Below, in pieces: positions 6,650 through 29,473 of a stretch of DNA of 36,403 bases. A program made the position numbers and the translations under genes. Numbering within the stretch: the stretch's first letter is position 1; every line of letters begins with the position of its first letter. A model generated the notes under the pieces. The model made no database searches. It was not told the DNA's origin and saw only the letters and a list, made by a program, of their open reading frames with translations. The DNA comes from Chiloscyllium plagiosum (taxonomy: Eukaryota). The stretch spans positions 9,930,862 to 9,967,264 of the forward strand of contig NC_057752.1 in assembly GCF_004010195.1 (NCBI RefSeq). The letters run 5' to 3'.

Positions 6650-6741
6650 GTTTATTTTTAATTCTTTGTGTTCCAGCCAGCTCACTAAGCTCTGCAATTT
6701 CATGTTCTAGGGTTGCAATTTCTGCATCTTTCTCCTTCAGG
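6650..6741 (-). CDS. Coding exon C2 (92 nt as assembled): (S)LKEKDAEIATLEHEIAELSELAGTQRIKNK
   Basis: Acceptor ttttcttacttttAG and donor |gtgagt; 16/30 aa identical to C1; one base longer than C1. Confidence 0.8.
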
Positions 6742-6899
6742 CTAAAAGTAAGAAAATGATCTGTACAGTAATTGTAGTATAAGGTTTACGTTGTATCTCT
6801 TGTTCTGGTGCGAGGCAGATAGCTTGTAACATTGAGTATAAATGTGATGTCAATAATATACAATCCAAAAATGCCTACCTGCCTGGAGTTTTAACCAAA

Positions 6900-7110
6900 G
6901 TTCCAATCCATCATCAAAAATGGTGAGCAAGAACAACCACCGAGAAAGAACAGTGAGAAAAACAGGGGAAGAGAAAAGGGCAGCTGCTCAAGCCAACAAT
7001 CTTCCATCATCAGTACCAACTTGCAAAGTATATTCTCATTGCAGGACAGCCTGTAAGGCTAAAACAGCACTCATAACCCACTGTACTGTGTACAGTCCTG
7101 GTCCCAATAT
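6900..7110 (+). mobile_element. Possible decayed RTE-type LINE C-terminal fragment
   Basis: Basic stretch followed by YSHCRTACKAKTALITH, resembling the RTE terminal CxxC..GL.SH knuckle. Confidence 0.4.
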
Positions 7111-7119
7111 AGAGTCAAA

Positions 7120-7480
7120 GATGACTTAATTGAAACGTAATATGAATTGACTGGGTGGATGTGGAAAAGGATGCTTCCTCTTGTGGGTGAATCTTGAACG
7201 AGGAGTCAGAATTTAAAAATAAGGTGCACCCATTTAAAACAGAAATGAGGAAATATTTTTCTCTAAGTTGAGAATCTTTGGAATTCTGTCCCTCAAAAGG
7301 CAGTGGATGCAGAATCTTTAAATATTTTGAAGACAGAGGTCGATAGACTCTTGATGACTAAGGCAATGAAAAGCTATTGGGGATATGCAAGAATATAGAG
7401 TGGAGGTTAAAATCAGGTCAGCTATGATCTTATTGAATGGCAGAGTGGCCTACTCTTGTTTCTTGTCTGCATGTTCAATG
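7120..7480 (+). mobile_element. CR1 LINE 3' fragment
   Basis: Similar to 1430-1770 (ctttggaattctgtccctcaaaaggcagtgg; atgatcttattgaatgg). Confidence 0.85.
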
Positions 7481-7622
7481 TTTATCATGACTTGAATAAA
7501 ACAGTGTAGAGATACACAGTTAAAACTTGGGGGCTATGAATTACGGGATTAGTATTTTCGATTAAAACAGCTTTACAAACATGAAATCAAATACATGATT
7601 TTCAGGTGATAAAATACTTTAC

Positions 7623-7660
7623 CTGTTTTCCAGTTGTTCCACTGCTTCTAATTTTGTGAG
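7623..7660 (-). CDS. Coding exon B2 (38 nt, phase 0-2): LTKLEAVEQLEN(S)
   Basis: Acceptor ttttttcccattattctAG and donor CAG|gtaaag; paralog of exon B1. Confidence 0.85.
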
Positions 7661-8394
7661 CTAGAATAATGGGAAAAAATAATATCATAATGGTGGAATG
7701 AGAAAATACCATTTGTCCCATTCAATTTTCTGTGTAAACCAGTTGTCGTTTCAGGACCTGTTTCACAATTTGTCATCTATTTCTAACCTTATATCTCTGC
7801 CCTGTACTCTTTAATAAGTACGGTAGTAACACTTTTATAGCACTTTTTTGTGCCACGCTTCAGTCCCTGCTTGGTTCAGTGTGAATAAGTTTTTATACTT
7901 AGCTGTTTCTTGAAATACAGGGTACTCAGACATAAACCAATATCTATATATAAACGCTGCTAGTTTATGAAATGAACCAACTAAGTGATGAATGCTTGTA
8001 TCATTACTGAATGAACTGAGCTTAATCTTTCAAATTTCCTTCTCCTTCCAGTGTAAAACACTGATCTATATTTGATACTCTCCATTGATAGCATGGCTAA
8101 TCTCTGCGAGCAATCATGGGTATGAAAGTGCATGCAACAGCAGCATTGCACAGCATGTTATTACACCAAATTGTGTTGTTCCAATGCTTGCTGTGAAAGA
8201 ATTATAAGAATATTCAGATTTAGTATTACAAATAGTTGTTTGGTAATACATAACTTGGAATATTGCTGTAAAAGATTTATTTTGTCAAAGCTTTTTATCT
8301 TGTACTGATCAGGACAATTTGCGAGAATACCAATAAAGGGGAAAACCAACATTTATTCTGTGTGAGAGAATGCAGAAGTTAATGATGATTGACT

Positions 8395-8794
8395 TGGCAG
8401 CCCTTTTTGAATTACATAAATACAGATATTTCGGCTATCCTAACAAGGGCTTTTATTTAATTGAGATTACAAACCTGGCTGGTCCGCGGCCCCTCGGGGG
8501 AGGAATCCCGCACGAATACGGGTTTTATCATATCTGATGCTAACACATCCCGAGCATGTAAGAGACTTAAATATACACCCTGGTTAGTTGTAGGTTAGAT
8601 TAGTAGATAGTTGAGTTTTGCTTGTTTGTTTTTTTTTCTTTTCGGGTTTTTTTTTGTTGTTTTGTTTTTTTTGTCAAATTTTGGCTATTGTATATTTGAG
8701 CTAATTGTATATCAATGTTTATATCTGAGAGTTTTGTTTATTTTTGTAAACTTGTAAAAATGTTAAATTTCTAATAAAAATATCTATTAAAAAA
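8395..8794 (+). mobile_element. 5'-truncated L1-type LINE 3' end with poly(A) and 14-bp TSD
   Basis: TSD aatgatgattgact at 8381-8394 and 8795-8808; ORF2 end WQPFLNYINTDISAILTRAFI*; T-rich UTR, aataaa at 8773, A tail. Confidence 0.85.
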
Positions 8795-10663
8795 AATGAT
8801 GATTGACTGTTGACAGCCAGGCTTTAAATTTCAAACCAGTAGGTACTGAATCAGCGAATAGCTGCTACTTATTTTTGAGTTAGAACAGGTGCAGAGTGTG
8901 CACATATGATCTTTCTGTCTGTAAATAAAAGGGCCCTGTGTATTAATATAAGTAGCTTTCAGTTTACATAAGTGCACCACATTGCAAAGTTGAATTGGTT
9001 GTCAGTGTAATTCTTCACTCACTCAGGATTTCTAGCAAGTGCTGTCCAAATGCAGAAGCACATCTAATGTTGGACAATGCATTGCGTGTTTGGCAAGCAC
9101 AGGCTGTTTGGACATGGTCATTACCTTGAACAGCCCGAGGGGTTTTCTGTTTGATAGAATGCATCAATCTTTGGGATGTACAGCCGACATACAGCTTTCA
9201 CGTCAGCAATGAAACTCATATACCACATTACTTATTTGTGTGATAGGCACAATGTCTTTTTGGCTTGATGACAATATCCTCTTAATGGTGGGCAACACCC
9301 ATCTTGTTATTGCATAATGAAACAACTAACCTCATTTGTTGCTGGAACATTTGCGATACTTTAACCTCCCTGGGTAACCTAAGGTAAACTGGCCACTCTT
9401 CAGGGCTCAGAGTAACTTTTCATGAGATTGAGTGATATACATCAACAAATGATCTTATCAAGGTACCTATTATCCTGCAGGCTGTGTTTGATCCTTCGCA
9501 TTTCAGCATCAGGTTTGCATGGTGAACAAATGACTTGAGCCCTATTTAGGTTAGCGATAATGCCACTTCTTAGCATTTTAACACTGTAATAATCCCAATG
9601 TGTATACAGACCAGTGAAGGTAGGTTTGTGGCAGACAGTAGTGGAGAACCCTTGGTTGACTTCTTTAACAGATCAAGGAAAGGCAGCTATTTTGATTATT
9701 CCATTTCAAATGTAAATTTGAGTATAGGAATGGACTCCATTAAGGCATAAAAGGACTTTCTTACATACAGCTGTGGTCTCAAATGTAGCAAACATTTCAT
9801 ATACATTTGGAAATCTGAAAGTGGTAGCAAGTTAAGTATCATTCAGTCAAATACGCATTTCTGATGGAATGCAAAGACATTTGTAAGAGCTGTGATTTGC
9901 AGGGTCTACAGTGTCGTACTATTTGTTTGGGTGTACATGATGACATTGAGCCTGAACTCAACTGCTGAGTTGATAATTTCAGTGAATACTGGTTGATACA
10001 ATGGTGATGGGTCAAGATCACTATGATGTAGAGCTACAACGTAGATGTCTTTGACTTCCTTCAGTAGTACATTGGTGAATAGCTAGCATTATCAAAGTTA
10101 AGAGGTGGTCTCTGAATTGCCATTAATATGCAAGTCCTGTGCAGTCCTCGCAAAGATGAAGGAATTCCTTCATCAAGTGGATAACCTGCTCAAAATGGTT
10201 GTAGCAATTCATCCAACCATTTGGCCAGTTCATGTTATGCAGAATCAATCAAAGATAGGCTGTAAAGGGACACAACTTTTGTGTCTTGGGCAGCCTGTAC
10301 ATAAGTGGCATTACATTGTATGGTGAAGGATTCCTTCAGCTTTGCGTATCTCTGATGGAATGGCATTTAACCTCCTCCCTCTTTCCATATATAGATGATG
10401 TTTGCAGAAAGCAAAGTACTGACCACACTCGAAAAGCCCACCCTGACAAAACCTGCAACATAGTGTCCAACGTTAGAAGTGATTCTGCAATTGGATAGTA
10501 TTTGCTGGATCATCTTGAGTGTCCAAAGAATTACACTGACAACCAATTCAGGATTGTCAGTTGGGCTTGCAGTGTGGTGCACCTACATGTGCTAGAACAT
10601 AATAATTACACAGGGCCAACTCTTTGTGGCAGACAGTAAGATCATGTGTATGCATTGCACCAG

Positions 10664-10756
10664 AGCTGAAAATGTGTTGCTGGAAAAGCGCAGCAGGTCA
10701 GGCAGCATCCAAGGAACAGGAGAATCGGCGTTTCGGACACAAGCCCTTCTTCAGGA
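10664..10756 (-). mobile_element. 93-bp PLE-derived mini-element with hammerhead core and 14-bp TSD
   Basis: TSD atgcattgcaccag at 10650-10663 and 10757-10770; minus strand CTGAAGA-A-GGGC-ttgt-GTCC-GAAAC; same family as 35006-35195. Confidence 0.85.
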
Positions 10757-13559
10757 ATGCATTGCACCAGTTTCATCTCAACAAAATCGCTGAATAGCCA
10801 TTCTGTGGTTCATTTTTCAGTGCACGGCCCTGAACAATCACAACCAATCTGACTGGTTTGAAATCCTAACAGTCAATCATTAACTGCTGTATTTGGCCAT
10901 GGCAACGCCTCTACCAATCAATCAACACTCTCCTCATACGGTTGGTTTCCCCTTTATCAGTATTCATGTGAAGTATCCTGATGAGTGTAAGATGGAAAGC
11001 CTAAACAAAATATGTTGTTTTTCAGCAATATTTGGCATTGTCTTGTACCATAGGGCTGATTCTGCAGTGATCCACTCGGTGAACAGCTTCTTGCTAGCAG
11101 CATCTCTGACCTGTGGAATCAAGAAAATTGGCCTCAGCACATTTCAGCGCTGTGATCCTGATTCTGTTGGAGAAAAATAATTTAATTTTTGAAGTAATGG
11201 ACATTAAAAATCCCATGGCATTAACCAATGCAGGACAGAGTTCTCCTGGTTGTCTAAACAAGGTCTGTCAGTTTAGCAACATCGAAAGCAAACTAACTCA
11301 TCATTCAACCTATTACCGTCCACACAGAACAGCAATTGCACATTCATTTCAAAATTAATTAATTGGGTGAAATGCGAAATGTTTCAACTTGATAAGATAA
11401 TACATAAATGCAAGTATAATTCCATATATAGTTCCCAGATAAACTTTCTGCACTGTCTGCCCATTTTTGTGGCACAATTCAAGGAGTTGCATCGGGAAAT
11501 ATTGCAAAGATCAGTTAGAGTAGACCTTTCCCCAGTTTAGTGCTTGTCTATTTACAGCCTTTGTTTCCATTGATTGGCATAAACAAAATGTAAATATTAA
11601 TTTTGGGTGGTTACAGTCTACCGTCTATTTCCTGCTCCTCTTTTGTGCAGGACATGAGATAGAGCTAGGTGGCAGTCTTTACATGAAAGATAATGGAAGT
11701 AGTACATTATATTAAAGTAAACTGTTCCAACCATTTCTCACCTGATTTTTTAAAATGTTTTATTGTGCTAATTGTCAGCTATTTATTTTCAGCCATTATC
11801 AGCACCCACAGATTTCCCAATGGGAATCTCCCTATCAATCCCTTCCAATAGATTGGAGTTGGGGAGACATCATTTGTTGACAGCAAATTTGCTCTAGGTC
11901 AAGCGACAAGCAGTTCTTTTCAGCCTAAGCAAATGCACCTTTTTTTTTTTGTTTATTGTTTCTTCAGTCTTCCTGTTGTTCATTACAAGTTAACAAGTGG
12001 TGCTCACACATTCAACATGGCAAGATGCGTTATGTTGGGCATTAGGGAAAGAGTAGCATTCCTTCAGACAAGGTTCAAACATGGGATGGTGCAAAAAACG
12101 GGCAGTCTCTGTATGTTCATCATTGCAATGACAGGTGATCAGACAGGTAGTGATGTACAGTGTCAATAATGTTGTGAATGTAATCTTCTATTTCCAATGA
12201 AGTAGCACTCATGTCACATATGTGCCCGCAAAAGTTTTTCTGTTTTTTGTTTCCCTTTTCCTATATCAAGTGTGAAGGGCTATGGGTATTCCTGGTTGGC
12301 AACGTTTGGACTGGTGCACAGGCTGAGCTTTAAATTTGGCACCAAAACAGGCATTCTGGATGTTGCCATAGGGGTAAGCACTTTGGCCATTGGCAAGTGC
12401 ATGATCACACAAGCATGACAAGATGAGCAATTAAGAATTACATGAGGCAATAGAGGGAAACCTTCGGTATATTCTCTGAAATTGAAATTTAATTATGTTT
12501 GGTAAAATTCAGCCCACGGTTTGTTCTCCGGCAGTGTGTTGTATAATGAGATGAGAACAGAGAGTAGCAGGCTTCAGTTGGCATCTGCCCTTCTACTTCT
12601 CCACATCCAGCACACTCTCTGGCCTCCCTCCCCAGACTTGGAAAGCTGCCTGTCAAGGGGAGGCAGCAGTTACTGATCAAAGATTTGGTAGTCCACTAAC
12701 TCTTCTAGCTTTCCATTCCAAAGTGGTGGGTTGGCTTGCTGACAAAAGAATGGCAAAATTGCTGCCATGAAGTTAAAAAATCTATTATTATAATCGATAC
12801 AACAACTGCTGCATACAAAAGCAGCTACATTCCATGAATGGGTCCCAAGAAGAACACATAGAAGGTTGCAAGTAAAGGAACCTGTTTATGTGAAGGCTAT
12901 GATAAGGGAAGCTATCCTGCCTCAGGTGTCAGTGATAAGCAATTCAAACACTTCAATAACGTATATCATGGAAAGATGATCAGGGAAATAAATGAGAGAT
13001 GCTTGAGAACCATGGCTGATTCCTCTTATCCTGCCTGACCTCATAGAAATCTCTCCCTTAAACCTGAACTTGACATTTCAAGTGTCTAGAATGCTATAAG
13101 TCTAAATTAGGTTTCTACAAATTAATTCATAGCTAGCCTTAAAGTAAAACTTGCACTTTGAAATTCTGTACGTGAGCGTGGCGAGCAGGTTCATTTTCAG
13201 GAGTTACACCAACAGAACAGCCTAATTAAGGCCCAGCTGAAAATGGATCTTCATTAACTGGCACAGCTAGGCCCCTTCTGATAGAAGGATATACAAATTC
13301 ACAACGAAGTAGCACTTGAATGCAACTTCAGAGTATTGGAGCTGACCATCTCAGATTGAAGTGATGGCAGAAGAGTTGTTTGGTTGCTTTCAACTAAACA
13401 AAGCACCTTATTGGCAAGTATATCTAACTTTCAGTTTGAGTTTAGGTCCATGGTAGTTTTAACCCTTTTTCCTAAAAAGAGCTTGTTAAGTACAAGATTG
13501 ATACTCAACATTAAACAAGTACAATAATGTACTCAAAAAAGGGATTTGTCAAGTGTGAA

Positions 13560-14420
13560 AGATAGGGACACGAGTGATTTAACTAATAAGTTAAGATACG
13601 ATAGTGATGGCAGGACAAACTACGTGTTATGCTGCAGCATGTGGGAGCTGTTAGACACCATGTTGATCCACATTGAACTCATTTGTAGTACGTTTTTGCA
13701 GATTGAGTAACTTTGGAGCAGAGTTGAGGAGTTTGAGTTTGAGCAGCAGATATTGCATCACATCAGGGTCACATTGCATCAGGAGGCAGTCACAATCCTA
13801 GGATTAGGTAATTCAAACTTGGTCTGTAATCAAGGACAGAAGGTGCAAGTGTAAGGGACACAGGCATTGGGGGGGGGGAGGCTGAAAGGACAGTTTTGAG
13901 CATCTTTCATCTGAGAAACCATCCAATAGTTAGAGGTTCTTGCAAGCTGTGTAGATGAGAGCAGGGACTGCAGGGTGAGTGAACTGACTAGGGCACTGTG
14001 GTATAGGGAGCCAGTCAAGTAGGGAAGGAAGTAGTGTACAATATAGTTAGGGGTAGTTAAGGGGATATTGTTCCCTCCAGCCAGGAGTGAGAGTGCTGAA
14101 GGTTGTGTTGCCTGCCTAATGCCAGGGTTAAAGGACATCTCCTCAGGGCTCAAAAGGAAATTAGAGTGGAGGGGAGGGATCCAGTAGTCATCGATGTTGG
14201 TACTAAACAATATTAATAGGATTAGAAAGGAGGTTTTGCTTGAAGATTTTGAACAATTCAACTAAATTAGAAAGCAAAACAAGGTAATAATCTCAGGATT
14301 ACTAACTGAGTCATAGGTAAATTAGGATTGGGTAAATAAAAAGTCAAAAGGAATTAAATGCATCAAAGACTGATGTGGGAGGAGGAGTTTAAATTCATGG
14401 GGGAAAGGATGCTGTTCTGA
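13560..14420 (+). mobile_element. Decayed CR1 LINE ORF1 (Cys-rich N-terminus and SGNH-esterase-like domain)
   Basis: MAGQ..CCSMWEL, HICS, CCLPNARVK, DPVVIDVGT remnants. Confidence 0.75.
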
Positions 14421-14599
14421 TGGCGCAGGCTTCTCGAACCGTACTGAGACCAGTGTCCTGGAAAATCACCGAGGGAGTTTGGTTTGGGGGGTGGTGGCAG
14501 GCAGGGGAAGAAGAGAGAGAAGGGAAAGGAGAGAAAAAAAATACAAAGGCTCACAAAAAGAAACAAAAACAAGGATTTGGGGGCATTGCAGGGCAATTT

Positions 14600-14885
14600 C
14601 AGGCAGTATAGTCGTCAGTGGTTAGCACTGCTGCCTCACCAATGTCAGGGACCCGGATTCGATTCCAGCCGCAGGTGACTGTCTCTGGAAAGTTGGCACA
14701 TTCTCCCAGTGTCTGTGTGGGTTTCCACAGGGTGCTCCAGTTTCCTCCCACAATCTAAAGATGTACAGGTTAGGTGGATTAGTTATGGTTAATGCAGAGT
14801 CATGGGAATGGTGGGGGCTCCTCTTCAGAGAGTTGGTACAGACATGATAGACTGAATGGCCTCTTTCCATAATTCTATGATTCTT
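14600..14885 (+). mobile_element. HE1-type tRNA-derived SINE
   Basis: cagtggttagcactgctgcctcac...cccggattcgattcc A/B boxes; core; tail ctgaatggcctctttcc...ttctatgattct. Confidence 0.9.
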
Positions 14886-14929
14886 TGCTGAACATTTAAA
14901 AAATTAAGAGTAATGCGAAAATGGCAGCA

Positions 14930-15345
14930 TTAGTGGTTCTTTCATTTATATAGTTCTGAATAAAAGTGACTTAACTGCACAAGAGAGGTTATTGGGTATG
15001 ATCATACAACCACATTTCTAATGGGTACACAGAGTCTGAGCTTGGAACTAAACATTCAGGAATGTGAATTTTCAAAAAGACAGGTGGGGAGGAAAAGGTG
15101 GCAAAGTAGTTTTGTTAGTATTACGTGAAGAAAGTATAATAGCAAATTATCTAGGTCAGATGATGTAGAATCCAGATGGGTGGAGATAAGAAATAATAAG
15201 GAGAGGACAACATTGGTGGTCATAGTCTACAAGTCCACTATCAGCAGCTATACTGTAGAATTGAATAAATCAGGAGATAATGAAGGCATGCGAGAAAGGC
15301 AGTACATGAATGATGGGCACCTTTAATCTTCATGTAGATTTTGGA
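14930..15345 (+). mobile_element. Decayed CR1 ORF2 endonuclease fragment
   Basis: VESRWVEIRNNK, VIVYK, MGTFNLHVD remnants. Confidence 0.7.
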
Positions 15346-15739
15346 AGTTGGGGGGGGGGGGGGAAATCAAGCCGGCACAAAGATTGCCACAAGAAAGCAA
15401 TGTGCAATCTTTGTCAGGGGTAATATTACCCCTGACAGCCTCCAGTCTTTTTCGGACCTTCAAGGCAACCAAAGCAACACTGTTCTCAATGCACTTCCCT
15501 ATTACAAGTGTCAATTCAGAGACATCTGCTCAAAAGAATTCTCTTTCTTCCTCATGGGAACACCGACAGCAAGATTGAATATGCAGTGGACCAGGATCTG
15601 CTTTGGCTAAAACGGACTCTTTTGAGCGGTACCAAATCTCTACAGCAGATGGCAAAGATGCCTCTTTTTCCTCAAGTGTTGTCTCATCAGCCTCTGCTGC
15701 TGTCCAGTGTAACCTTTTTCATTGTCTTCTGCATTTGCC

Positions 15740-16340
15740 AGAAACAGTCTTTTTCAGATAATGAAATTGTGTAGCACACAACAGACACTATAACCAGACA
15801 GGTGCCAGACAGAACTATATTTAAATACACTCCAGATCTAAGCACCTGAAGAGAGCCATTGGAGTGCTTCTCGTCTATTCTATATCAATCTTGGTACAGG
15901 ATTCATTATATCAATGTTGTAGGGTCTTTGAGATCCCCAGTAGTATCATTACCCAGTGTTACAGATAGCAGCCCTTGGCACAGAGCAACTGTCTTGGGCC
16001 TGTGAACTGTGATAGGAATTTAGAGTTCCGTAACACACAAGAATTATGACAGCTTCCTCTATAATAACTACTGAAATGGTGTGCTTGGCATTACACACCA
16101 GCTTCAGATTAAATAAATTACATGTTTTCATATTGGAAAAATTATGTTCTGCAGGACACACATGGTGGCACAAGTTCCTGTAATGACCATCCAGTCCTTA
16201 AGAAATTCAAGAAGTCAGTAAAATTGTCCTATGCATTGTGCCAGGACCAGTAGGTGTGAGGTAACTGGGTAACTTGTACAAATAAGACGTCTATAACCTG
16301 CATTATGCACTGGTATAAAGCCAATTGGTTCATATGATAT
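15740..16340 (-). mobile_element. Decayed PIF/Harbinger (HARBI1-like DDE) transposase
   Basis: Minus strand LKLVCNAKH...RGSCHNSCVLRNS...LLCAKGCYL*HWVM...YNES...IE*T...LFRCLD...CVLHNFII follows the Harbinger motif order PGSxHD, LLGDxGY, RYN, RFRCL, CCxLHN; contains stops and frameshifts. Confidence 0.8.
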
Positions 16341-16419
16341 GTCACCAATGCTCCCTTGGGGAAAAAAAAACCCTGAAGAATACAAATGCAACATTTCTTT
16401 TCATGGTCATTGACAATGT

Positions 16420-16795: not shown

Positions 16796-16807
16796 TTTAA
16801 AAGAATT

Positions 16808-17632
16808 AATTTATTTATTCATTTGTGGGATGTGGGCATTGCTGGCTGGCCAGCATTTATTGCCTGTCCCTAGTTGCCCTTGAGAAGGTGGTGGTGAGCT
16901 GCCTTCTTGAACCACTGCAGTGGGTTGACCCACAATGCCCTTCGGGAGGCAATTCCAGGATTTGGACCCAGTGACAATGAAGAAATAGCGATATATTTCC
17001 ACATCAGGGTGGTGAGGGGCTCGGAGGGGAACTTGAAGGTGGTGTTCCCATATATCTGCTGCCCTGGTTCTTCCAGATGGAAGTGGTCATGGGTTTGGAA
17101 GGTGCTGTCTGAGGATCTTTGGTGAATTTCTGTAGTGCACCTTGTCGATAGTACACACTGCTGCAACTGGGCATCGATGGTGAAGCGAGTGGATACTTGT
17201 GGATGTGGTGCCAATCAAGCAGGCTACTTAAGCGAGTGGATACTTGTGGATGTGGTGCCAATCAAGCAGGCTACTTTGTCCTGGATGGTATCAAACTTCT
17301 TGAGTGTTGTTGGAGCTGCACTCATCCAGGCAAGTGGGGAATATTCAATCACTCTCCTGACTTGTGCCTTGTAGATGGTGGACTGTTTCTGGTCAATGGT
17401 AACCCCCAAGGATGTCTATAGTGGGAGTTTCAGTGATGGTACCACCATAGAATGTCAAGGGGCAGTGGTTAGATTGTCTCTTGTTGGAGATGGTCATTTC
17501 CTGGCATTTGTATAGTGCAAATGTTACTTTCCACTTGTCAGCTCAAGCCAGCATATTGTCCAGATCTTGTTTCGTTTAAACATGGGCTGCTTCAGTATCT
17601 GAGGAGTTGCGAAGGGTGCTGAACATTGTGTG
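16808..17632 (-). mobile_element. CR1/L2-group LINE 3' part (RT C-terminus)
   Basis: GVTIDQK, IYKAQVRRVIEYSPLAWMSAAPTTLKKFDTIQDKVACLIG; gaataaataaa tail. Confidence 0.85.
17183..17276. repeat. Perfect 47-bp tandem duplication inside the LINE
   Basis: aagcgagtggatacttgtggatgtggtgccaatcaagcaggctactt at 17183-17229 and 17230-17276. Confidence 0.95.
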
Positions 17633-19394: not shown

Positions 19395-21945
19395 TCTCCT
19401 GACGAGGACTCGTCTACTAAGGTTAGAAACAGGAGAGGAGAGGTCACACTACTGGGAGTTTTATTTAAAAAAAATATATAGGCCTCTGATAAGTGCCAGG
19501 GATGCGGAGGAGAGGATCGGCAAAACAATTCTGGATAGGAGTGAAAGGAAAAGGGTGGTCATTATGGGGGACTTTAACTTCCCCAACATTTATAGCATTT
19601 CCAGTCACTCTAGTATAATCAGATGGATCAGTTTTTGTTCAATGAGTGCAGGAGGGTTTCCTGGCACAGTATGTTGAAGGGCCAACAAGAGAGGAGGCCC
19701 CACTGGATCTGGTACTTGGTAATGAACCAGGTCAGATGTTTGATTTAGTGGCAGCTGAGTACTTTGGAGAGCGTGACCATAATTTGATTACAATTAGTTT
19801 AGCGATGGAAAGGAAATTGGTACATGCCACAGGGCAAGAGTTATAGATGGGGGAAGGGCAATTATAATGTGATTAGGCAACACTGAGAAGGCATAGAACG
19901 GGGTAGCAAAATGCAGGGGATGGGGACAATCAAAACGTGGGGCTGGTTTCACGAATAGATATTGTATGTCCCTGTCAGGCAGGCAGGAAGTGATAAGGTA
20001 AGGGAACCATGGTTCACTAAAGAAATTCTCTCTCTTGTTAAATGGAAGAGGGAGGCTTATGTGACATTTGAGAAGAGATGGTTCAGATGAGGTGATGGAG
20101 AGTTACAGATTAGCTCAGAAAGATTTAAAGAGACAGTTAAGAAGAGCAAGGAGGCAACATGAGCAGTCTTTAGCAAGTAGAATAAAGGAGAACCCTAACG
20201 CTTTCTATAGGTATGTGAGGAATAAAAGGATGACTAGGGTAGGAATAGGGCGTGTCAAAGACAGAAGTGGGAAGTTGTGTATGCACCCTGTGAAGATCAG
20301 AGAGGTGCTAAACGAATATTTCTCATCTGTTTTCACTCAGAAAAGGAGAATATTGTAGAGGAGAAGAATGAGATACAGGCTATTAGACTGAAAAGGATTG
20401 AGGTTAGTAAGGACGAGGTGTTATCAATTCTAGAAGGTGTGAAAGTAGGTACGTCCCCTGGGCCGGATGGGATTTATCCGAGGATTCTCTGGGAAGCTAG
20501 GGAGGAGATGGCAGAGCCTTTGTCCTTGATCTTTGAGTCGTCATTGTCTACAGGCATAGTACCAGAGGACTGAAGGATTGCAAATGTTGTACCCTTGTTC
20601 AAAGAGGGCAGTGGAGAGATGACCCAGGTAATTATAGACCAGTGAGCCTTATATCTGTTGTAGGAAAAGTTCTGGAAAGGATTATAAGAGATAGGATTTA
20701 TCATCTAGCAAGGAACAATTTGATTAGAGATAGTAAACATGGTTTCATCAAGCGCAGGTTGTGTCTCACAAACCTCACTGAGTTTTTTGAGAATGTGACC
20801 AAGCATGTAGATGAGGGTAGGGCAGTTGACGTCGTATACATGGACTTCAATAAAGCCTTTGATAAGGCTCCACATGGTAGGCTTTTAGAGAAAATGCCGA
20901 GGCATGGGATTGAAAGTGATTTAGCAGTTTGGATTAGAAACTGGCTTTCTGTAAGAAGGCTGCAAGTGGTGGTTGATGTTCAGCCTGGAGTCCAGTTACT
21001 AGTGGTGTGCCATAAGGATCTGTTTTGGGACCACTGTTGTTTGTCATTTTTATAAACGACTTGGACGCAGTTATAGGTGGATGGGTTAGTAAGTTTGCAG
21101 ATGACACTAAAGTCGGTGGAATGGTGGAAAATGTGGAAGAATGTTGCAGGGTGACTTGGAATAACTGCATAATTGGGCTGAGAGGTGGCAAATGAAGTTC
21201 AATGCAGATAAATGAGAGGTGATTCACTTTGGAAAGAATAACACGAAGGCAGAATACTGGGTCAATGGAAAGATCCTTGGTAGTGTGGATGTGCAGATCT
21301 TGGTGTCCCTGTACATAGATCCTTGAAAGTTGCCACCCAGGTTGATAGTGCTGTTAAGAAGACATACAGTGTGTTAGGTTTTATTAGTAGAGGATTGAGT
21401 TCCGGAGCCGTAATGTCATGCTGCGACTGTACAAAACGCTAGTGCGGCCGCACTTGGAATATTGTGTGCAGATCTGGTCGTCCCATTACAGGAAGGATGT
21501 GGAAGCATTGGAACAGGTGCAGAGGAGATTTACCAGGATGTTGCCTGGTCTGGAGGGAAGGTCTTATGAGGAAAGGCTGAGGGACTTGGGTCTGTTCTCA
21601 TTGGAGAGAAGGAGGCTAAGAGGGGATTTAATACAGACATACAAGATGGTCAGAGGATTAGATAGGGTGGACAGTGAGAGTCTTTTTCAGAGGATGACGA
21701 CGTTGACTTGTACGAGGGGGCATAGCTGCAAACTGAGGGGTGATAGATTTAAGACAGGTGTTAGAGGTAGGTTCTTCACTCAAGAGTGGTAAGGGCGTGG
21801 AATGCCCTGCCTGCCAATGTAGTTAACTCAGCCACATTAGGGGCATTTAAACAGTCCTTGGCTAAGCACGTGAATGATGATGGGACAGTGTGGGGGATGG
21901 GCTTAGAGTCACAGGTTGGCGCACTGCATTGTTCTATGTTCTAAA
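19395..21945 (+). mobile_element. HER1/CR1 LINE ORF2 (endonuclease end, RT, 3' UTR), decayed
   Basis: MGDFNFP, PTREEAPLDLVL, SPGPDGIYPRIL, VYMDFNKAFDK, FADDTK, LEYCVQIWS; ttctatgttcta tail. Confidence 0.95.
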
Positions 21946-22284
21946 GCTCCTGAAAGAGAGTTCTTCTTGGCGCTACCTGAAGAAACGGTGTCTGCAAAAA
22001 AAATGACCCAGTGACAACTGCTTGTGTTTAGTGACATCAGTTAATATTTGCCAGGATGGGCAAAACCCATCTCTTTTTCCACCCCCTCCCCCCCCCTTCA
22101 GAAACAAACAATTATTCACCAAAGTGATCTGATAAAGTTAATCCTAGAGAAAATGTCTTCCATTACTGGGGGGGTGTGTATTATTTAGAAGGCTTAACAT
22201 TTATATCTTCATATTTAAAACGGTGTTAATGTGATTTTGCATTATCAAAGAAATAATTTGTTCTTTATTGAACAAACCTGGTTG

Positions 22285-23090
22285 ATAGATAGAGTCACAG
22301 ATGTACAGCATGGAAATAGACCCTTCAGTCCAAACCGTCCATGCCGACCAGATATCCCAACCCAATCTAGTCCCACCTACCAACACCCGGCCCATATCCC
22401 TCCAAACCCTTCCTATTCATTTACCCATCCAAATGCCTTTTAAATGTTGCAATTGTACCAGCCTCCACCACTTCCTCTGGCAGCTCATTCCATACAGGTA
22501 CCACCCTCTGATAGGAAGGAGACCAGAATTGCACGCAATATTCCAACAGTGGCCTAACCAATGTCCTGTACAGCCGCAACATGACCTCCCAACTCCTGTA
22601 CTCAATACTCTGACCAATAAAGGAAAGCATACCAAACGCCTTCTTCACTAGCCTATCTACCTGCGACTCCACTTTCAATGAGCAATGAACCTGCAGTCCA
22701 AGGTCTCTTTGTTCAGCAACACTCCTGAGGACCTTACCATTAAGTGTATACATCCTGCTAAGATTTGCTTTCCCAAAATGCAGCACCCTCGCATTTATCG
22801 GAATTAAACTCCATCTGCCACTTCTCAGCCCATTGGCCCATCTGGTTAAGGTCCTGTTGTAATCTGAGGTAACCCTCTTCGCGGTCCACTACATCTCCGA
22901 TTTTGGTGTCATTTACAAACTTACTAACTGTACCTCTTATGCTCACAGCCAAATCGTTTATATAAATGACAAAAAGTAGAGGACCCAGAACCGATCCTTG
23001 TAGCACTCCACTGGTCACAGGCCTCCAGTCTGAAAAACAACCCTCCACCAGCCAGTTCTGTATCCAAATGGCTAGTTCTCCCTGTATTCC
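22285..23090 (-). mobile_element. HER1/CR1 LINE 3' fragment with internal deletion
   Basis: Very similar to 4123-5210; jumps from ccaccctctg to ataggaagg at 22510, skipping about 275 bp present in the other copy. Confidence 0.95.
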
Positions 23091-24559
23091 TCTTTTTCTT
23101 TTACTCCCAATATAGATAAATACTTTATCTTATTATCAATTAGGTTTATGTTGTGATTAGTGGAGGGTGAGACTAGAGGATGACAGTACATTCTTTCAAT
23201 CTGGGTCAAAGCGGTTCAGAAACTAATTACAATCCAGAAAAGGACACATCCTAGCTCTAACACACATTGTGACAAATGCATAATATACAAAATACACAGC
23301 GAGGATAAAGTAAGTGCTTATCATTTAAGACTGTGGGAAAAATTCACCTTGGGTGGTAGCACAGAATTAATTGTCCACCCCTTATAAGCAGTGCCTGATA
23401 CCCAGTTTATTTGGCCACAAAAGGGACCCGAATATCCAATACTGCACGTAATAGGCAGCTGATCTAATGTCTCATTTTATGCCATCCACCACTCGAGATA
23501 AATTTCTATTCTCCAGAATTGTCTTTTTCTTCAAGCAAATTGGTATAATCAGCAACATCTGAAAACACTAGGATTAAAATATTTGATCTTGTAAACTTCA
23601 AGAACTGAGCAAGGAGTGGCGCAATGGGTTAGTAGTACTTTCCTTTCAGATTTCTCCCCTTAACTGAAGGGATAATGATCTCTCAAGACTTTTATGCAAG
23701 ATGATTTTGAAGAAACATCAACTACTTTGCTCATAGCCACTGGCTCACAGTTCAGGTGTTAGTGACAGCTGGTTTAAAAGAAATGGTTATAAATGATTCA
23801 GTACTGAGTGCTTGAGAGATTAAGACAATATTAACTATATGTGGCCTGATTGTATTTGGAGGAGACCCTCGGGCCTAGAAATGAGTCCGGGTTGTTTGCA
23901 ATCAGAGCGTAGCTGAAATGAGAGGTCAGAGGATGGAAAGAAATCAGTGTTTGGGTTTCATCAATACATTTAAGAATGGCCAACAGTCATCACAGGCAAC
24001 TTGTCGAAGCAAAGACATAAATGGTGAGCCACTTGCTTCATCTACATGTTCTGGGAGAGATGATCAGTGATTTTTTTTCGATGCAAGGTGAAGAAATAGA
24101 GTTTCCTCTCTTGGTTTTATTTGAATTCATAGTTATATAAAAAAAAACCATAGGGGAAAAAAAAATCTTGCCTGCTGCTGGCAACCATCGAAGAATTGCA
24201 ATACCTGCCCTCACTACCAACAGGTTTACTAATGGAGGCCATCAACAGGATTCAACTCAAATGATAAATTAAGGGGTGTAATGCTAGATTTTAGGCATGA
24301 TCCTGTGTATATTGCGTTCCAATTTCAACTCAAAGAGCCAAAAATTGGAAAAAATACTATTGCCTGACCTACGTGACTGAACTTAATTAACACAAAAAAG
24401 TTAAACTGCAACAATATCCATTAGCACAGTCCCAGAAAATCAATGTAAAGGGAAAGACCCACAGCTACACAAAGGCATTGAAACATCCAAGCTATATATA
24501 ACTTAATGTCATAAATGTACTTTCCAAATGATTAAATATGAAATCCTGCAATCACTCAC

Positions 24560-24650
24560 ATCATGTTTACTTTTTTGCGTTTCAAACATTTCATTCAGCT
24601 GCATAATTTCTTGTTCCAATGTTGAAATCTGTGCATCTTTTTCCCTCAGC
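24560..24650 (-). CDS. Coding exon C1 (91 nt, phase 2-0): (R)LREKDAQISTLEQEIMQLNEMFETQKSKHD
   Basis: Acceptor ctcttttccttAG and donor GAT|gtgagt; heptad-like pattern; phases join B1 upstream and A2 downstream. Confidence 0.85.
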
Positions 24651-25129
24651 CTAAGGAAAAGAGAATAGTTTATCACAGTGCAGGAATCAAATTTATATTT
24701 TGTATTTTAGTATGCTAAGGGGAAAGACATGGTTTTAAATTAGACTTGGCTTTGCGGGCTGTGATATGAGGGAATCTGGACAGCGATTTGTATGCATTTT
24801 ATTTTTTAAAACATGCGATTTTACAACCTTTGCAATGAAGAAATAGGGGTTACAAGTTTAATTGCCATTTAAAATAAAAAAAAATTAATGACTGCTGATG
24901 CCTAGTGATAGAGATCCAGGGACAGAGAAAATCTAGGAGAGAGTGGACATTACAAGGAAAGAGTGCTGAAAGTTAGGGAACTCTGCCCTTAAAGTAAGAG
25001 TTTAGCTTGCAGTTTGTTTCTGGTGTCTCAGAGAGATACCAGCTGAAGGAAAAGGCATTTAATGAAATGTGCAAAAATTTGCCAGAAAGAAAACAGATAT
25101 GGATATGCCAGCCTGCGCTAGAAACCTTT

Positions 25130-25692
25130 CATAGAATCTCTATGGTGTGGACCCTCCAAACAGTAACCCACCTAGACCAATTCCCCTACCCTATTATCCT
25201 ATATTTACCCCTGACCAGTGCACCTTTGGGCAATTTAGTTTGGCCAATTCATCTAACCTGCACATCTTTGGATTGTGGGAAGAAATGGTGGCTTAAATGG
25301 TTAGCACTGCTGCCTCACAGTGCCAGGGACCCGGGTTGAATTCCCGCATCAGACAACTGTCTGTGTGGAGTTTGCACATTTTCCCAGTGTCTGTGTGGGT
25401 TTCCTCCCACAGTCCAAATATGTGCAGGTCAGATAAATTGGCCATGCTACATTGCCCGTAGTGTTAGGTGTAGGGGAATGGGTCTGGGGTGGGTTACTCT
25501 TCAGAAGGTTGGTGTGGACTTGTTGGGCCGAAGGGCCTGTTTCCACACCGTAGGGAGTCTAACCTAATCTAAACCCACACAGACACTGGAAGAATGTGCG
25601 AACTCCACACAGACAGACAGTCGCCAGAGACTGGAATCGAATCCAGGTCTCTGGTGCTGAGAGGCAGCAGTGGTAACCACTGAATCACCAAG
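25130..25692. mobile_element. Nested HE1 SINEs: plus-strand copy (about 25286-25570) inserted in a minus-strand copy
   Basis: Minus copy breaks at gattgtgggaagaaa and resumes at aaacccacacagacac; inner copy has A/B boxes and a ctaacctaatct tail. Confidence 0.9.
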
Positions 25693-26084
25693 CAGTGTTT
25701 GGTGTGGAAGCAGTGGTAAATATTCACTGGATGTTTGGTGTTTGGAAGGATATTCCTGTGATAAAATTATTGTTGAGTGAATTTCAGAAATTTAATGAAA
25801 TCTTTCCAACTTTTTTGTCTAATGTAATATACTTCACGTTTTTCTTTTTTAATAGAAATTTTTATTTTGTTAAATGTACACTGGCAGACTCCTGTAAAAT
25901 GTGTTTATAAATTGAAACCCACATTTAAAACAAAGTTAAAGTCTATCATGCCAGGTTGCAGAGTGGTCCGACTTGTCCAGTATTGACATCAGTTGGAATT
26001 GATAACCTTTCAAATTTGAATGCAATTTATCATACAAAACCAAAACATGATTGTCTTATCTCAGACTCTAATAACTCAATAATA

Positions 26085-26235
26085 TAAAAAAAAGAACTGC
26101 AGATACTGGAGATCCAAAACAAAATCTGTGTTCTGATGAAGAGTCACTGCACTCAAAACATTAACTCTGCTTTCTCCCCACAAATGCTGACAGACCTGTG
26201 GAGATTTGCCAACAATTGGTGCTTTTGTTTCTCAG
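26085..26235 (+). mobile_element. Degenerate PLE-derived mini-element with decayed hammerhead core
   Basis: CTGATGA-A-GAGT-cactgc-ACTC-AAAAC at 26133-26159; gatgctg..agacctg-type downstream sequence. Confidence 0.6.
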
Positions 26236-27504
26236 TAACGCAGTCCCTGGAACTCTGCACCTTCATCTCTTTTTTTCCTTTCTGCTACAATCTGTAGGTT
26301 TTTAAACACAAGCTTGGCATCACTCAATTACTTCTAGTTAATGTGTTTTATGCTCAGTCTGCTAAGGAAAAATTTATGCAGCTCTGTCCAAGTGCGGATG
26401 AGATTAAAACACATCTGCTACAATTAGAAAACTGTTTTTGCATGGCTTTGTAACGTCACTTCATTTAGTAATTGGCAAATGATCTCTATTATATTGCCAT
26501 GTGCAAGGAACATAGTAGATGCATTAGCAGGATATCAGGTTGTTCAGTAGCTGATAACAGACTGCTCCTTACAATAAACTGTTGAAAAGTGAAAATTCTA
26601 GAGGTCTGCTACTGTTCTCTGAAGGTGGAAAATAAATGAGAGAAAAGAACAGGCTGAATCAAAGTATGCTGCTCTGGGAGGTCTCCCAAAAGCTGCTGCA
26701 AAGAAGGGTTGTCCTTCAAGTTATTGGGATATCCTCCAATCAGTAGTTAGAAATGCCTGGTGAAACTGGACAAGTAGTGGCAGTAGATGCAAAAAAAAAA
26801 CCCCAAATTATGGGACTTCCACCCCTCACTGGGAAGGAGTCTGAAACTCTGGAGTTGCTGATTGGCTGACAGTTACAAAAGCCCAACAGCAGAGTTCTGT
26901 TGTGGGTACTGCAAGAGATGCAGGCAGGCCCCTGCCAGAGGTCCCATGGATTCCAGATTCAGATAAGTCTAAGGGCTTTGGGTTTTTTGGGAAACTCAGG
27001 GGAGGGACATGGGTTTTGAAGAAAATGAGGATGGAAATGATGGTGCTGTCAGGGGAAGGAAAAAAGGTAGGGGGTGCTTTTGAAAAAAAAAATGAAAGCG
27101 AATACCACTCCTGCTCAACTGTATTATGGCACCTGGCAGTATAATACTAAATTCAGTTGAGTTTTTATGAAGCTTAAGCTCAATTGACCCTTTTTTATTT
27201 CCATATGGTGGGGGGGGGTGGGTGCCAAGTGATAAGGTGATGGGCTAGCTACCCTCCCTATATAACATTCTCTCCCCCACCCAACCCAAAACACACACAG
27301 CAGAGGCACTTATTATACAGCCCATGGGCTTCTGACTAATGTCAAGAATAATTCACCACTACTTTAATGTTTGAATCATAACATTCACGTGTATACCTAT
27401 ATTGTTGCAGGGCACACTTAGCTGTGACAGAAACATGCTTCTCAAAGTCAAACAAAGTTATTACCATCATTGTCGAAAAGTTTTCTTCACAATTTAAATC
27501 GATA

Positions 27505-27840
27505 GGACGTGAGCATCACCAGCAAGACCAGCATTTATTGCTCATGGGTAATTAACCTCAAGAACGTGGGGGTGACCTGCCTTGTTGAATGACTGCAGTT
27601 ATGTGGTGTACACACTCCCACAGTGCTCTTCGTTAGGGAGTTCTAGGACTTTGACAGTGAAGGAACACAATGCATTTCCAAGTCAGAGTGATGCACAACT
27701 TGGAGGGGAACCTGAAAATGGTGGCTTTCCCATGGTACTCTTGCCACTCTTGTCCTTTTGGGTAGTAAAAGTCACAGGTTTGGATGTGCTTTCAGAGACT
27801 CCTTGACGAGTAGCTGAAGTACTTTACAGATGGTACATAC
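27505..27840 (-). mobile_element. Old CR1/L2-group LINE 3' fragment
   Basis: Diverged match to 16820-17160 (ccagcatttattgc, tttccaagtcag, ttggaggggaac). Confidence 0.7.
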
Positions 27841-27927
27841 TTCAGTTCATGAATTCACACAAAATTGGCATATGGATTTATCACTTCAGTGAGACAGTTT
27901 CTGGTCTTTCAACATATGTATTTAACT

Positions 27928-27972
27928 GACACACACACAAACAGACAGACAGACAGACAGACACACACACAC
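27928..27972. repeat. (CA)n/(CAGA)n microsatellite
   Basis: Direct inspection. Confidence 0.9.
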
Positions 27973-28181
27973 TCATCAGTGACTCTCACCTATTGGTTCG
28001 TTGTGAGGATGAGTGCTCAATCGAGGCCATAGGAGGAGTGAAAAAGCAGCAAGGTCAGAAACCATCCCAAATTAAAAAAGGTAGAATTAGCTTTGAAGAG
28101 TAAGAAGGAAAACAAAAACACAGTTGCTTATTCATTGATGCACTACATTCATCTCCTGATCTGTTGTAAACCTTTCCTTAC

Positions 28182-28219
28182 CTGCTTTCCAGCTGCTCAG
28201 TCACTTCTAATTTGGTAAG
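28182..28219 (-). CDS. Coding exon B1 (38 nt, phase 0-2): LTKLEVTEQLES(R)
   Basis: Acceptor cctttatAG and donor CAG|gtaagg; only phase 0 is open; 28/38 nt identical to exon 7623-7660. Confidence 0.85.
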
Positions 28220-29428
28220 CTATAAAGGATGGAAGAAAAGAAGTGTTCACGGACAACAATAGCTTTAAGATCTTGCCATGCCCAATGGAACATCGAGGCA
28301 GATACAAAGCAGTTGCCCAAGTTAAAGTAGCCACACAAAAAAAAGGAGCTAGAAGTCTTGAAATAACAGCATTGCTGAGCATGTGCTGCTAAATGACCTT
28401 AAAAATAAACAAACCAAATACCTACATCTTCCCAAAAAAAAATTAAACAAATTCAGCTATTTAAATTTCATTCTCATCTAGGAATTAGAAACTGCTGCAA
28501 ACATTCAGCTGGGTTAGTTCCCACAGACTAGTCAAATGGTTGGAAAAATGATGGCAACATGCATTACGATTACCATGGACTGATCAAGTTGGTACAAAGT
28601 AACATGGGTTGAGTGGACAACTTTAGCACAGGGCCCTACATTTTAATTAAAATCACATCGTATGTCAAACATGGAAAAACTATTTTTGAAATTAATGTTT
28701 TTTTCTTATAATACTTCATTGCTTCATTTTGAGTTGTGATTTTGCTTGATCACCCAAAAGACCTTTATTCAAGCACTCAGGTGGAGAATCAAAGCTCGTC
28801 TGAATTCTAGGTGAAATACGGAAGAGGAGAGTTCCAAGGTCCACAGCCAACCACAGGTCTCCTGTAATCCGATCAATCTTCATATTTCTGACTCATTGCC
28901 CTATTCCTCAATACGTGTGCTATTAGCTTGGAGGAAGGAAAGTTACTGCATCAAAGTTGCAGAACACTATATTTTCAGTAACTCAAATGGGGGGAAAAAA
29001 AAACACAGATCAGCCAATAACTGCATGATAGAGGAGCTGGATGGCCTAATTCAATTTCCTTTTTACCTGTACATCAGTAACAGTTATGCCATATCTAAAT
29101 GATTTGCATTTCAACTTTGTTTCCCTCTTCAGATTTTACTGTACCCTGCCTCATTCTTGGATCAACAGGACCAGAAGGTGATCCACTCAGTTCTTTCCAA
29201 AACCATTCTTGAAACCCAAGGGGTGATTGATCTACCTCAACTGACTTTATCTGTATTTTTATTTGGTGTTTCATTCTTGTTCAACAATCCAGATTGTACA
29301 AGAGAGATTAGAAACTGGTGGGCTTTGCAGATTAGAATAGTTATTAAATTGTTCTTTTGCCAGGAAGAAAAAAAGATAGCCCAAACTCCGATTGACAGTT
29401 TAAAACAAAACAGTATTTACTAATTTAC

Positions 29429-29473
29429 CTTCAGGAATTTTGCCTTTGTTTTGAGATGTTTCTTTTCCTTTTC
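29429..29473 (-). CDS. Coding exon A1 (45 nt, phase 0-0) of an unidentified coiled-coil gene: EKEKKHLKTKAKFLK
   Basis: Acceptor ctctatttAG and donor AAG|gtaaat; open frame; paralogous to exon 18672-18722 (11/15 aa identical). Confidence 0.8.

What the first reader, a model, noticed from the sequence alone, without database searches (positions are those of the whole stretch)
6650..29473. Hidden coiled-coil gene built from a tandemly duplicated three-exon module
Seen: six short minus-strand GT-AG exons, absent from the ORF track, splice in frame to EKEKKHLKTKAKFLK|LTKLEVTEQLESR|LREKDAQISTLEQEIMQLNEMFETQKSKHD|ETEKEKRHIKVKARFLK|LTKLEAVEQLENS|LKEKDAEIATLEHEIAELSELAGTQRIK... The two modules share exon order, internal phases (0, 0, 2) and near-identical sizes (45/51, 38/38, 91/92). 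Amino-acid identity is 11/15, 9/12 and 16/30, with many synonymous changes (e.g. CTT/CTC, ACC/ACA, GAG/GAA, CAG/CAA). The introns show no evident similarity. Inference: an old internal duplication under purifying selection, giving an about 60-aa repeat of a basic KxKAxFLK segment plus a heptad segment. Module 1 starts and ends in phase 0, so it could be skipped as a cassette. I do not recognise the protein family.
Basis: partly seen in the sequence, partly recalled or inferred. Interest (0 to 1): 0.75.

Follow-up and report, generated by a model that had tools for sequence, protein, structure and literature searches.

The report
Shark anchorless p180 coiled-coil offshoot gene
This is a real, conserved shark gene whose twice-repeated coiled-coil exons match two exons of an ER ribosome-receptor gene (likely p180/RRBP1) but which has no membrane anchor, so it likely makes a small soluble rod that would pair with itself or with p180 and may damp protein synthesis on the ER.

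Summary
All six GT-AG exons, their sizes, phases and identities (11/15, 9/12, 16/30) are exact, and dN/dS between modules is 0.19. They belong to an 11-exon, 181-codon gene between PRIM1 and a CSAD/GADL1-type gene. It is conserved in catshark, sevengill and bamboo shark records under meaningless automatic names. Splicing is shown by four intron-less retrocopies (five junctions up to C1) and by RNA contigs (B2-C2, C2-last exon). C1-A2 appears only in catshark models.

The 38+91-nt exon pair matches one pair in a PF05104 gene on contig C9 (likely RRBP1; 17/30 aa, 65/91 nt, reciprocal best hit). The other PF05104 gene (likely KTN1) carries seven 38+91-nt units, six followed by a phase-0 exon.

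The shark gene lacks the transmembrane anchor, the KP region and the downstream exons. It is therefore a fragment-derived, internally duplicated offshoot, not a full family member. The single basic A exons, not module 1, are the cassettes seen. Function is untested. The best guess is a soluble dimerising rod that competes with p180, as engineered p180 fragments do.

The parts
32298..32328 (-).
   Evidence: ortholog match and AG/GT ends; joined to neighbours in retrocopies
31217..31280 (-).
   Evidence: 20/21 aa to catshark; 58/64 nt to retrocopy
29429..29473 (-). Exon A1 (45 nt, phase 0 to 0), basic (net +5); cassette in one sevengill record
   Evidence: weak profile match to the phase-0 repeat exons of the C10 (kinectin-type) gene, p 0.007
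28182..28219 (-). Exon B1 (38 nt, phase 0 to 2), kinectin/p180 38-nt repeat exon
   Evidence: 21/38 nt, 5/12 aa to the C9 exon
24560..24650 (-). Exon C1 (91 nt, phase 2 to 0), heptad segment; homolog of the C9 (p180-type) 91-nt exon
   Evidence: 17/30 aa, 65/91 nt; blastn E 8e-19 against the C9 locus; reciprocal best hit in the genome
24360..24559 (-). First 200 nt of the intron after C1, carried by all four processed copies; marks an RNA that read past C1 without splicing
   Evidence: 89% over 293 nt including C1
18672..18722 (-). Exon A2 (51 nt, phase 0 to 0), basic (net +4) cassette exon
   Evidence: 14/17 aa to catshark; present in 7 of 8 catshark and 0 of 4 sevengill records; zero depth in X1 and X5
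7623..7660 (-). Exon B2 (38 nt, phase 0 to 2)
   Evidence: joint 6741/7623 with CT..AC ends in contig set X5; 25/38 nt to the C9 exon, E 1.6e-4
6650..6741 (-). Exon C2 (92 nt, phase 2 to 1)
   Evidence: covered without mismatch in X1, X2 and (in part) X5; 14/30 aa to the C9 exon
2437..2499 (-). Last exon: completes one codon, TGA stop, 3' UTR with an AATAAA about 60 nt in (3' end not mapped)
   Evidence: predicted by acceptor scan; the loose ends of X1 and X2 contigs at 6650 read exactly this exon

Best explanation
The exons belong to a conserved, spliced 181-codon shark gene whose repeated 38+91-nt exon pair is homologous to a pair in an ER ribosome-receptor gene (likely p180/RRBP1), and which likely arose when that piece was copied to a new chromosome and then duplicated in tandem, giving a predicted soluble coiled-coil rod that would pair with itself or with p180's matching segment and so would damp p180-dependent polysome assembly on the ER. 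Shown: exon chain, conservation, splicing of most junctions, purifying selection, homology of exons B and C, and absence of a hydrophobic anchor and of the KP domain. Predicted: one long helix. Inferred: origin by partial DNA-level duplication, because intron positions and phases are kept; germline transcription, because heritable processed copies exist; dimer formation; competition with p180; and A-exon inclusion adding or removing basic patches that tune binding. My odds: about 0.9 for homology of B and C to the kinectin/p180 family, about 0.7 for descent from the p180 branch, about 0.3 for the competition mechanism.
For:: the C exon and the C9 exon are each other's best hit outside their own gene and its retrocopies; the C9 gene has a 38-nt (0 to 2) exon followed by a 91-nt (2 to 0) exon. 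PF05104 lies 73 kb upstream of it on the same strand, and only 2 PF05104 loci were found in the genome; the C10 gene has seven 38/41+91-nt units, six followed by a 69- or 54-nt phase-0 exon (one 38-nt exon was picked out only). C1 scores 92 against the C9 exon and 42 against the best C10 unit; 0 of 20000 heptad-preserving shuffles reach 92; the tree joins both shark units (0.81) and groups them with C9 and the last C10 unit (0.97); maximum 19-residue hydropathy is 0.28 against 2.33 for the C9 N-terminus; of 15 C9 exons tested only the C exon matches within 436 kb by tblastn. AlphaFold gives one helix, residues 30-162, mean pLDDT 87. PMC3326322 (passages and section 21): soluble p180 coiled-coil fragments cut membrane-bound ribosomes by more than 75%. 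PMC11580933 (passages): the KTN1 cytosolic domain forms parallel dimeric coiled coils and p180 is its paralog.
Against: No experiment or expression data tie the protein to the ER or to p180. Exons X, Y and Z, and the A exons, have no significant match in the C9 gene. The A exons resemble the C10 gene's repeat exons (p 0.007 and 0.02, composition shuffles only), which fits an older paralog as well as a p180 copy. The tree rests on 43 columns and the position of C9 relative to the last C10 unit is unresolved (support 0.005). By my recalled numbering of human KTN1, the CDR2/eEF1B-beta site (1114-1153) and KIF5 site (1188-1288) lie in exons downstream of C, which this gene lacks, so it cannot sequester those partners directly. 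The names RRBP1 and KTN1 for C9 and C10 are recalled from their N-termini; a synteny check with PF00241 gave no C9 hit.
Confidence: 0.55

Rival explanations
1. Same origin, new job: the piece no longer touches p180 and works as an independent homodimeric scaffold, likely in the germline, whose optional basic A exons bind microtubules or RNA and whose acidic N-terminal helix recruits a partner.
For: About a third of the protein (exons ATG, X, Y, Z) has no match in C9 or C10 yet is about 90% conserved across sharks. The N-terminal 46 residues are net -9 and the A exons net +5 and +4. Four heritable processed copies imply germline RNA. The known partner-binding exons are absent.
Against: C1 has stayed as close to the C9 exon (17/30) as to its own sister C2 (16/30), which suggests constraint shared with p180. 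No tissue data were obtained.
Confidence: 0.3
2. It is the remnant of a third, ancient kinectin/p180 paralog that lost both ends, not a piece copied out of p180.
For: The order phase-0 exon, 38 nt, 91 nt equals the end of the C10 repeat array, while the C9 gene shows no such phase-0 exon before its 38-nt exon.
Against: No other C9 or C10 exon matches in 436 kb around the gene (18.6 kb reads N) and PF05104 has no C43 hit. Its neighbours (PRIM1, NACA-like, CSAD/GADL1-type) belong, from recall, to the HOX-linked paralogon, not the one holding RRBP1 and KTN1.
Confidence: 0.2
3. It is a bZIP-like regulator: each basic A exon plus the following zipper binds DNA, and A-skipped forms act as zipper-only inhibitors.
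For: A basic segment lies directly before a heptad segment, twice. The top PDB sequence hits are GCN4 zipper constructs (E 0.03-0.11). One bZIP row appears among Atlas structure neighbours, under the bar.
Against: No bZIP Pfam family was listed for 8 proteins scanned at E up to 0.1 or 1. The invariant Asn of the bZIP basic region (recalled feature) is replaced by Leu or Ile in the two modules. The zipper is explained by p180 homology.
Confidence: 0.04
4. The two modules are separate tandem genes, or the locus is non-coding.
For: One bamboo shark gene prediction splits the locus in two, though between B1 and C1. Two raw RNA runs gave next to no exon reads.
Against: 12 of 12 catshark and sevengill isoform records hold both modules. 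In X1, exons A1, B1, C1 and C2 all show depth near 14, that of one 509-nt contig ending in the last exon (inference). dN/dS is 0.19.
Confidence: 0.03

Closest known systems
p180 / RRBP1 (ER ribosome receptor; PF05104 gene on contig C9, name recalled)
   Same: 38-nt (0 to 2) plus 91-nt (2 to 0) exon pair; 17/30 aa and 65/91 nt in the C exon (22/31 aa for the catshark ortholog); acidic coiled coil
   Different: No transmembrane anchor, no KP/ribosome-binding region, none of the tested upstream or downstream coiled-coil exons; the pair is doubled; basic cassette exons and a new acidic N-terminus; 181 aa; different chromosome
Kinectin / KTN1 (PF05104 gene on contig C10, name recalled)
   Same: Tandem three-exon repeat with the same phases (38 nt, 91 nt, phase-0 exon); alternative cassette exons within the coiled coil (PMC12768868, passages)
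   Different: Two units against seven; only 10-13 of 30 aa to the closest unit; phase-0 exons shorter (45/51 against 54/69 nt) and strongly basic; no anchor; lacks the segments that bind CDR2, eEF1B-beta and KIF5 (placement recalled)
Scyliorhinus canicula LOC119958254 (XP_038642597-615), Heptranchias perlo XP_067832602-610, Chiloscyllium punctatum chiPu_0017134/0017135
   Same: Orthologs: about 85-96% identity over aligned residues; same exon chain
   Different: Carry automatic names (NETWORKED 1A-like, CLIP1-like, CCDC68-like, paramyosin-like) that none of my searches supports; catshark has two extra 12-aa cassette exons not found in this genome
Engineered soluble p180 coiled-coil fragments (PMC3326322)
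   Same: Cytosolic, anchorless pieces of the p180 coiled coil
   Different: Laboratory constructs of 160-240 aa of native human sequence; the shark protein holds only two diverged 43-aa copies of p180-like sequence

Membership tests
kinectin/p180 family | N-terminal transmembrane anchor | tested here: not met
   maximum 19-residue hydropathy 0.28, against 2.33 for the C9 N-terminus
kinectin/p180 family | PF05104 lysine/proline-rich region | tested here: not met
   2 of 2 genome hits are on C9 and C10; no PF05104 in 6 ortholog proteins
kinectin/p180 family | 38-nt (0 to 2) plus 91-nt (2 to 0) coiled-coil exon pair with sequence homology | tested here: met
kinectin/p180 family | Long cytosolic coiled coil with the C-terminal partner-binding exons | tested here: not met
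   helix of about 130 residues; none of 8 tested downstream C9 exons matches near the gene
kinectin/p180 family | Parallel dimer formation | tested here: inconclusive
   heptad a/d occupancy up to 7 of 8 in both C exons; no experimental test
kinectin/p180 family | ER-sheet localisation and effect on polysomes | not testable with these tools
   needs cell experiments
bZIP transcription factors | Basic region with invariant Asn and Arg/Lys at fixed spacing before the zipper (recalled) | tested here: not met
   Lys and zipper Leu spacing fits but the Asn position is Leu or Ile (sequence)
bZIP transcription factors | Pfam bZIP hit | tested here: not met
   none listed
NETWORKED, CCDC68, CLIP1, paramyosin (automatic names) | Family-specific domains or significant sequence similarity | tested here: not met
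   no Pfam family over its cut-off; no such protein among the hits

The most novel reading that the evidence does not exclude
Sharks have evolved, from a copied piece of p180, a natural anchorless inhibitor of rough-ER polysome assembly, with splice-switchable basic exons as its control. It would be a genome-encoded counterpart of the dominant-negative p180 fragments so far made only in the laboratory, and a third branch of the kinectin/p180 family.
Probability: 0.2. Interest if true: 0.75.

Novelty: new variant of a known kind. Interest (0 to 1): 0.45.

Why it matters
It gives an orphan shark gene, annotated under four unrelated automatic names, a traceable origin. It is also a clear case of a new gene built by exon-level copying from an ER-shaping protein, followed by tandem duplication and long retention in both major shark lineages. 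It exposes the three-exon repeat of shark kinectin. If the product pairs with p180, it offers a natural probe of how the p180 coiled coil builds ER polysomes, which PMC3326322 leaves open. The four LINE-headed processed copies show germline expression and a host mRNA piece spread inside a retroelement shell. The function is untested, so the interest is moderate.

Tried and rejected
Pfam scans of the protein and its orthologs: nothing over a cut-off.
Full phmmer of 1.84 billion representatives with the 81-aa retrocopy frame: 5 hits, 4 shark or shark-like and one sea-urchin coiled coil at 27%. It did not return p180 itself, so the blank is weak evidence on range outside sharks.
The search for shorter homologs covered only 30-43 aa proteins and found none: uninformative.
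ESM Atlas: best feature scores 0.88; CCDC73, CCDC171 and DUF3496 were leads under the bar.
PDB by sequence: only generic zippers. Foldseek PDB: nothing at E up to 0.001.
Homodimer prediction: no verdict, score 0.20 against a mark of 0.32; no evidence either way.
No RNA holder on record was listed. Raw runs X10 and X11 gave next to no exon signal, and the first lay was swamped by repeats.
Search for a third module within 236 kb: none. The catshark extra exons were not found here.
Destrin-family synteny check for C9: no C9 hit among 4 matches.
A recalled likeness to synaptonemal or golgin coiled coils found no support.
Literature: accession and locus names gave 0 papers. RRBP1+shark+duplicate, RRBP1+kinectin+paralog+exon, kinectin/RRBP1 evolution and PRIM1/CSAD/synteny/shark gave listings with no sign of this gene. 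PMC9804665 passages mention no third family member. Supplements were not read.
Earlier scan notes: none near this place, for this sequence or for p180 words.
Full report
OBSERVATION. The window is a stretch of contig C43 of a 3.56-Gb genome, rich in LINE reverse-transcriptase fragments (CR1-type from recall). All six exons are present on the minus strand with canonical splice sites. Between modules, over 58 codons, dN is 0.23 and dS 1.22 (ratio 0.19, Fisher p 1e-5), and paralogous introns share no blastn match at E<1e-3. No third module lies in 236 kb.

THE WHOLE GENE. Orthologous protein records exist for Scyliorhinus canicula (LOC119958254, 8 isoform sequences), Heptranchias perlo (4) and Chiloscyllium punctatum (two split predictions), plus one unnamed assembly protein. 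Together they read as 181 codons without a stop. Identity over aligned residues is 158/164 to sevengill and 161/182 to catshark (computed with exon X one codon too long, corrected). Neighbours are PRIM1 about 25 kb downstream, NACA-like and PTGES3-like exons beyond it (names partly recalled), and a CSAD/GADL1-type gene about 85 kb upstream.

SPLICING EVIDENCE. (a) The genome holds four intron-less copies, on C13, C28, C49 and C97783. They join X, Y, Z, A1, B1 and C1 without introns, which shows these five junctions directly. (b) In RNA-like contig sets (RNA is the tool's guess), X5 shows the B2-C2 joint at 6741/7623 with CT..AC ends. X1 and X2 cover C2 without mismatch and continue into the predicted last exon. 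(c) In X1 the bins holding A1, B1 and C1 have depths that work out to about 14, the depth of the one 509-nt contig holding C2. I infer one transcript across both modules. (d) Isoform records, which are predictions: C1-A2 in 7 of 8 catshark records; C1-B2 in 1 of 8 catshark, 4 of 4 sevengill and the bamboo shark model; A1 skipped in 1 of 4 sevengill; whole module 1 skipped in 0 of 12.

WHAT IT DERIVES FROM. Pfam, the ESM Atlas, PDB sequence search and Foldseek named no family. A search of the own genome with the sevengill protein gave one non-self locus among 9 matches, on C9 (E 0.004). It is a 91-nt exon entered in phase 2 and left in phase 0, preceded by a 38-nt exon in phases 0 and 2: the sizes and phases of B and C. 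PF05104, the ribosome-receptor KP region, hits two places in the genome: 73 kb upstream of that exon on the same strand, and on C10. From recall of the human N-termini, C9 is RRBP1/p180 and C10 is KTN1. The C10 gene contains seven units of a 38/41-nt and a 91-nt exon, six followed by a 69- or 54-nt phase-0 exon.

C1 matches the C9 exon at 17/30 aa and 65/91 nt, and the best C10 unit at 10/30. None of 20000 heptad-preserving shuffles reaches the score. By blastn against the C9 locus, C1 has E 8e-19 and B2 E 1.6e-4. The C9 exon's best other hit in the genome is C1. A 43-column tree joins the two shark units (0.81) and groups them with C9 and the last C10 unit (0.97); the order inside that group is unresolved (14 rows, none dropped, one lacking its B part). 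The A exons match the C10 phase-0 exons weakly (p 0.007 and 0.02) and nothing significant in C9. X, Y and Z match neither. Of 15 C9 and 10 C10 exons tested by tblastn, only C-type exons match within 436 kb.

PROTEIN. AlphaFold2 on the sevengill isoform gives a short helix (15-24) and one long helix (30-162), mean pLDDT 87, pTM 0.42. Heptads are clearest in Z-A1 and in each C exon, with register shifts at the B exons. The N-terminal 46 residues are net -9, each B+C net -4, and A1 and A2 net +5 and +4. There is no hydrophobic anchor.

HOW IT MOST LIKELY WORKS. Shown: a spliced, conserved, selected gene with p180/kinectin-type B and C exons and no anchor. Inferred: a genomic piece with introns was copied to this locus, acquired new upstream exons, and doubled before catsharks and sevengills split, since both have two units. 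The product is likely a cytosolic parallel coiled coil. I commit to competition with p180 as the most likely action, at about 0.3. Soluble human p180 coiled-coil fragments cut membrane-bound ribosomes by over 75% (PMC3326322, passages and section 21), and C1 has stayed as close to the C9 exon as to its own sister. By my recalled numbering, the B+C pair falls near the border of the first two of those fragments, and upstream of the CDR2/eEF1B-beta and KIF5 sites given in PMC11580933 (passages). The protein would thus act by mis-pairing, not by soaking up those partners. An independent germline scaffold is nearly as likely. A bZIP reading fails its tests.

THE PROCESSED COPIES. Each has a LINE-like head whose first roughly 36 codons encode a CxxC..CxxC zinc finger; a related head in L009 (71% nt) runs on into its own frame. 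After the head come the spliced exons, 200 nt of the intron after C1, an AATAAA where the parent has AATTAA, and a 10-bp-unit tail. The copies are 213/237 nt alike to the parent over Z-C1, with dN/dS 0.58 (not different from neutral, p 0.28) and two stops upstream, so they look dead. The gene-derived parts differ by 0-2 bases in 540, the heads by 2-6%. That means recent spread with different heads, gene conversion, or homogenisation by the assembler. Beyond the tail, three copies read N, so their 3' ends could not be described. Retrocopies are not rare in cartilaginous fishes (bioRxiv 10.64898/2026.06.26.734816, passages), and many LINEs are held to need their own 3' end (PMC3747384, passages). 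Two unchecked scan notes describe CR1-mRNA chimeras in other shark genomes.

NOVELTY. The gene is already predicted in public annotations, but under unrelated automatic names. My searches (listings, plus passages of PMC9804665 and PMC12768868) found no account of it or of a third, anchorless kinectin/p180 offshoot; subscription papers and supplements were not seen. It fails family membership on the anchor, the KP region and length, so it is a fragment-derived variant, not a member. Its range beyond sharks is open, because the widest search also missed p180 itself.

VERDICT. Real gene, origin largely solved, function untested. New variant of a known kind; interest 0.45.

Noticed in passing
G000 C13:41051, C28:34752, C49:8583 kb, C97783:15 kb (L002-L004, L029-L031): Four chimeric processed copies of this gene: LINE-type head with a zinc-finger frame, spliced exons X to C1, 200 nt of intron, gained AATAAA, 10-bp-unit tail. 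Bodies 99.6-100% alike but heads only 94-98% alike.
   Followed up: partly
G000 C13, about 41050030-41051640 (L030/L029): 7.3 tandem copies of a 220-bp unit (98% matches) directly upstream of the retrocopy head, like a monomer-array LINE promoter. Nine bases just after this copy's tail equal the continuation of the interrupted head frame, but the LINE does not go on.
   Followed up: partly
G000 C49 around the retrocopy (L025, L026): A 473-bp direct repeat (95.6%) lies on both sides of the retrocopy, and a 4-kb inverted duplication (95.9%) lies upstream of it.
   Followed up: no
G000 C10:48088189-48117533 (L075-L078): The kinectin-type gene is built from seven tandem 38+91-nt exon units, six followed by a 69- or 54-nt phase-0 exon.
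   Followed up: yes
L012:2800-5400 (about 15-17 kb downstream of the window): Endogenous-retrovirus-like stretch with broken pol and env-like frames (MLV integrase C-terminal Pfam hit), between this gene and PRIM1. Observed only.
   Followed up: no
L021:8500-8772: Intron-less ribosomal protein L27 copy (PF01777), likely a processed pseudogene near the NACA-like gene.
   Followed up: no
L017-L018: Long Ser/Thr/Ala-rich minus-strand frames inside the NACA-like gene, likely its large muscle-specific exon (recalled).
   Followed up: no
window 31005-31028: A 24-nt stretch 88% like part of exon Z, 200 nt into the next intron; possibly a small local duplication.
   Followed up: no
window 17183-17276; 741-1439, 3702-6007, 19965-23090: A perfect 47-bp tandem duplication, and LINE reverse-transcriptase fragments in both orientations filling the introns.
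   Followed up: no
P0009 (unnamed assembly protein): This ortholog has an unrelated 38-aa insert exactly where A2 sits, not found in the window; possibly another alternative exon.
   Followed up: partly
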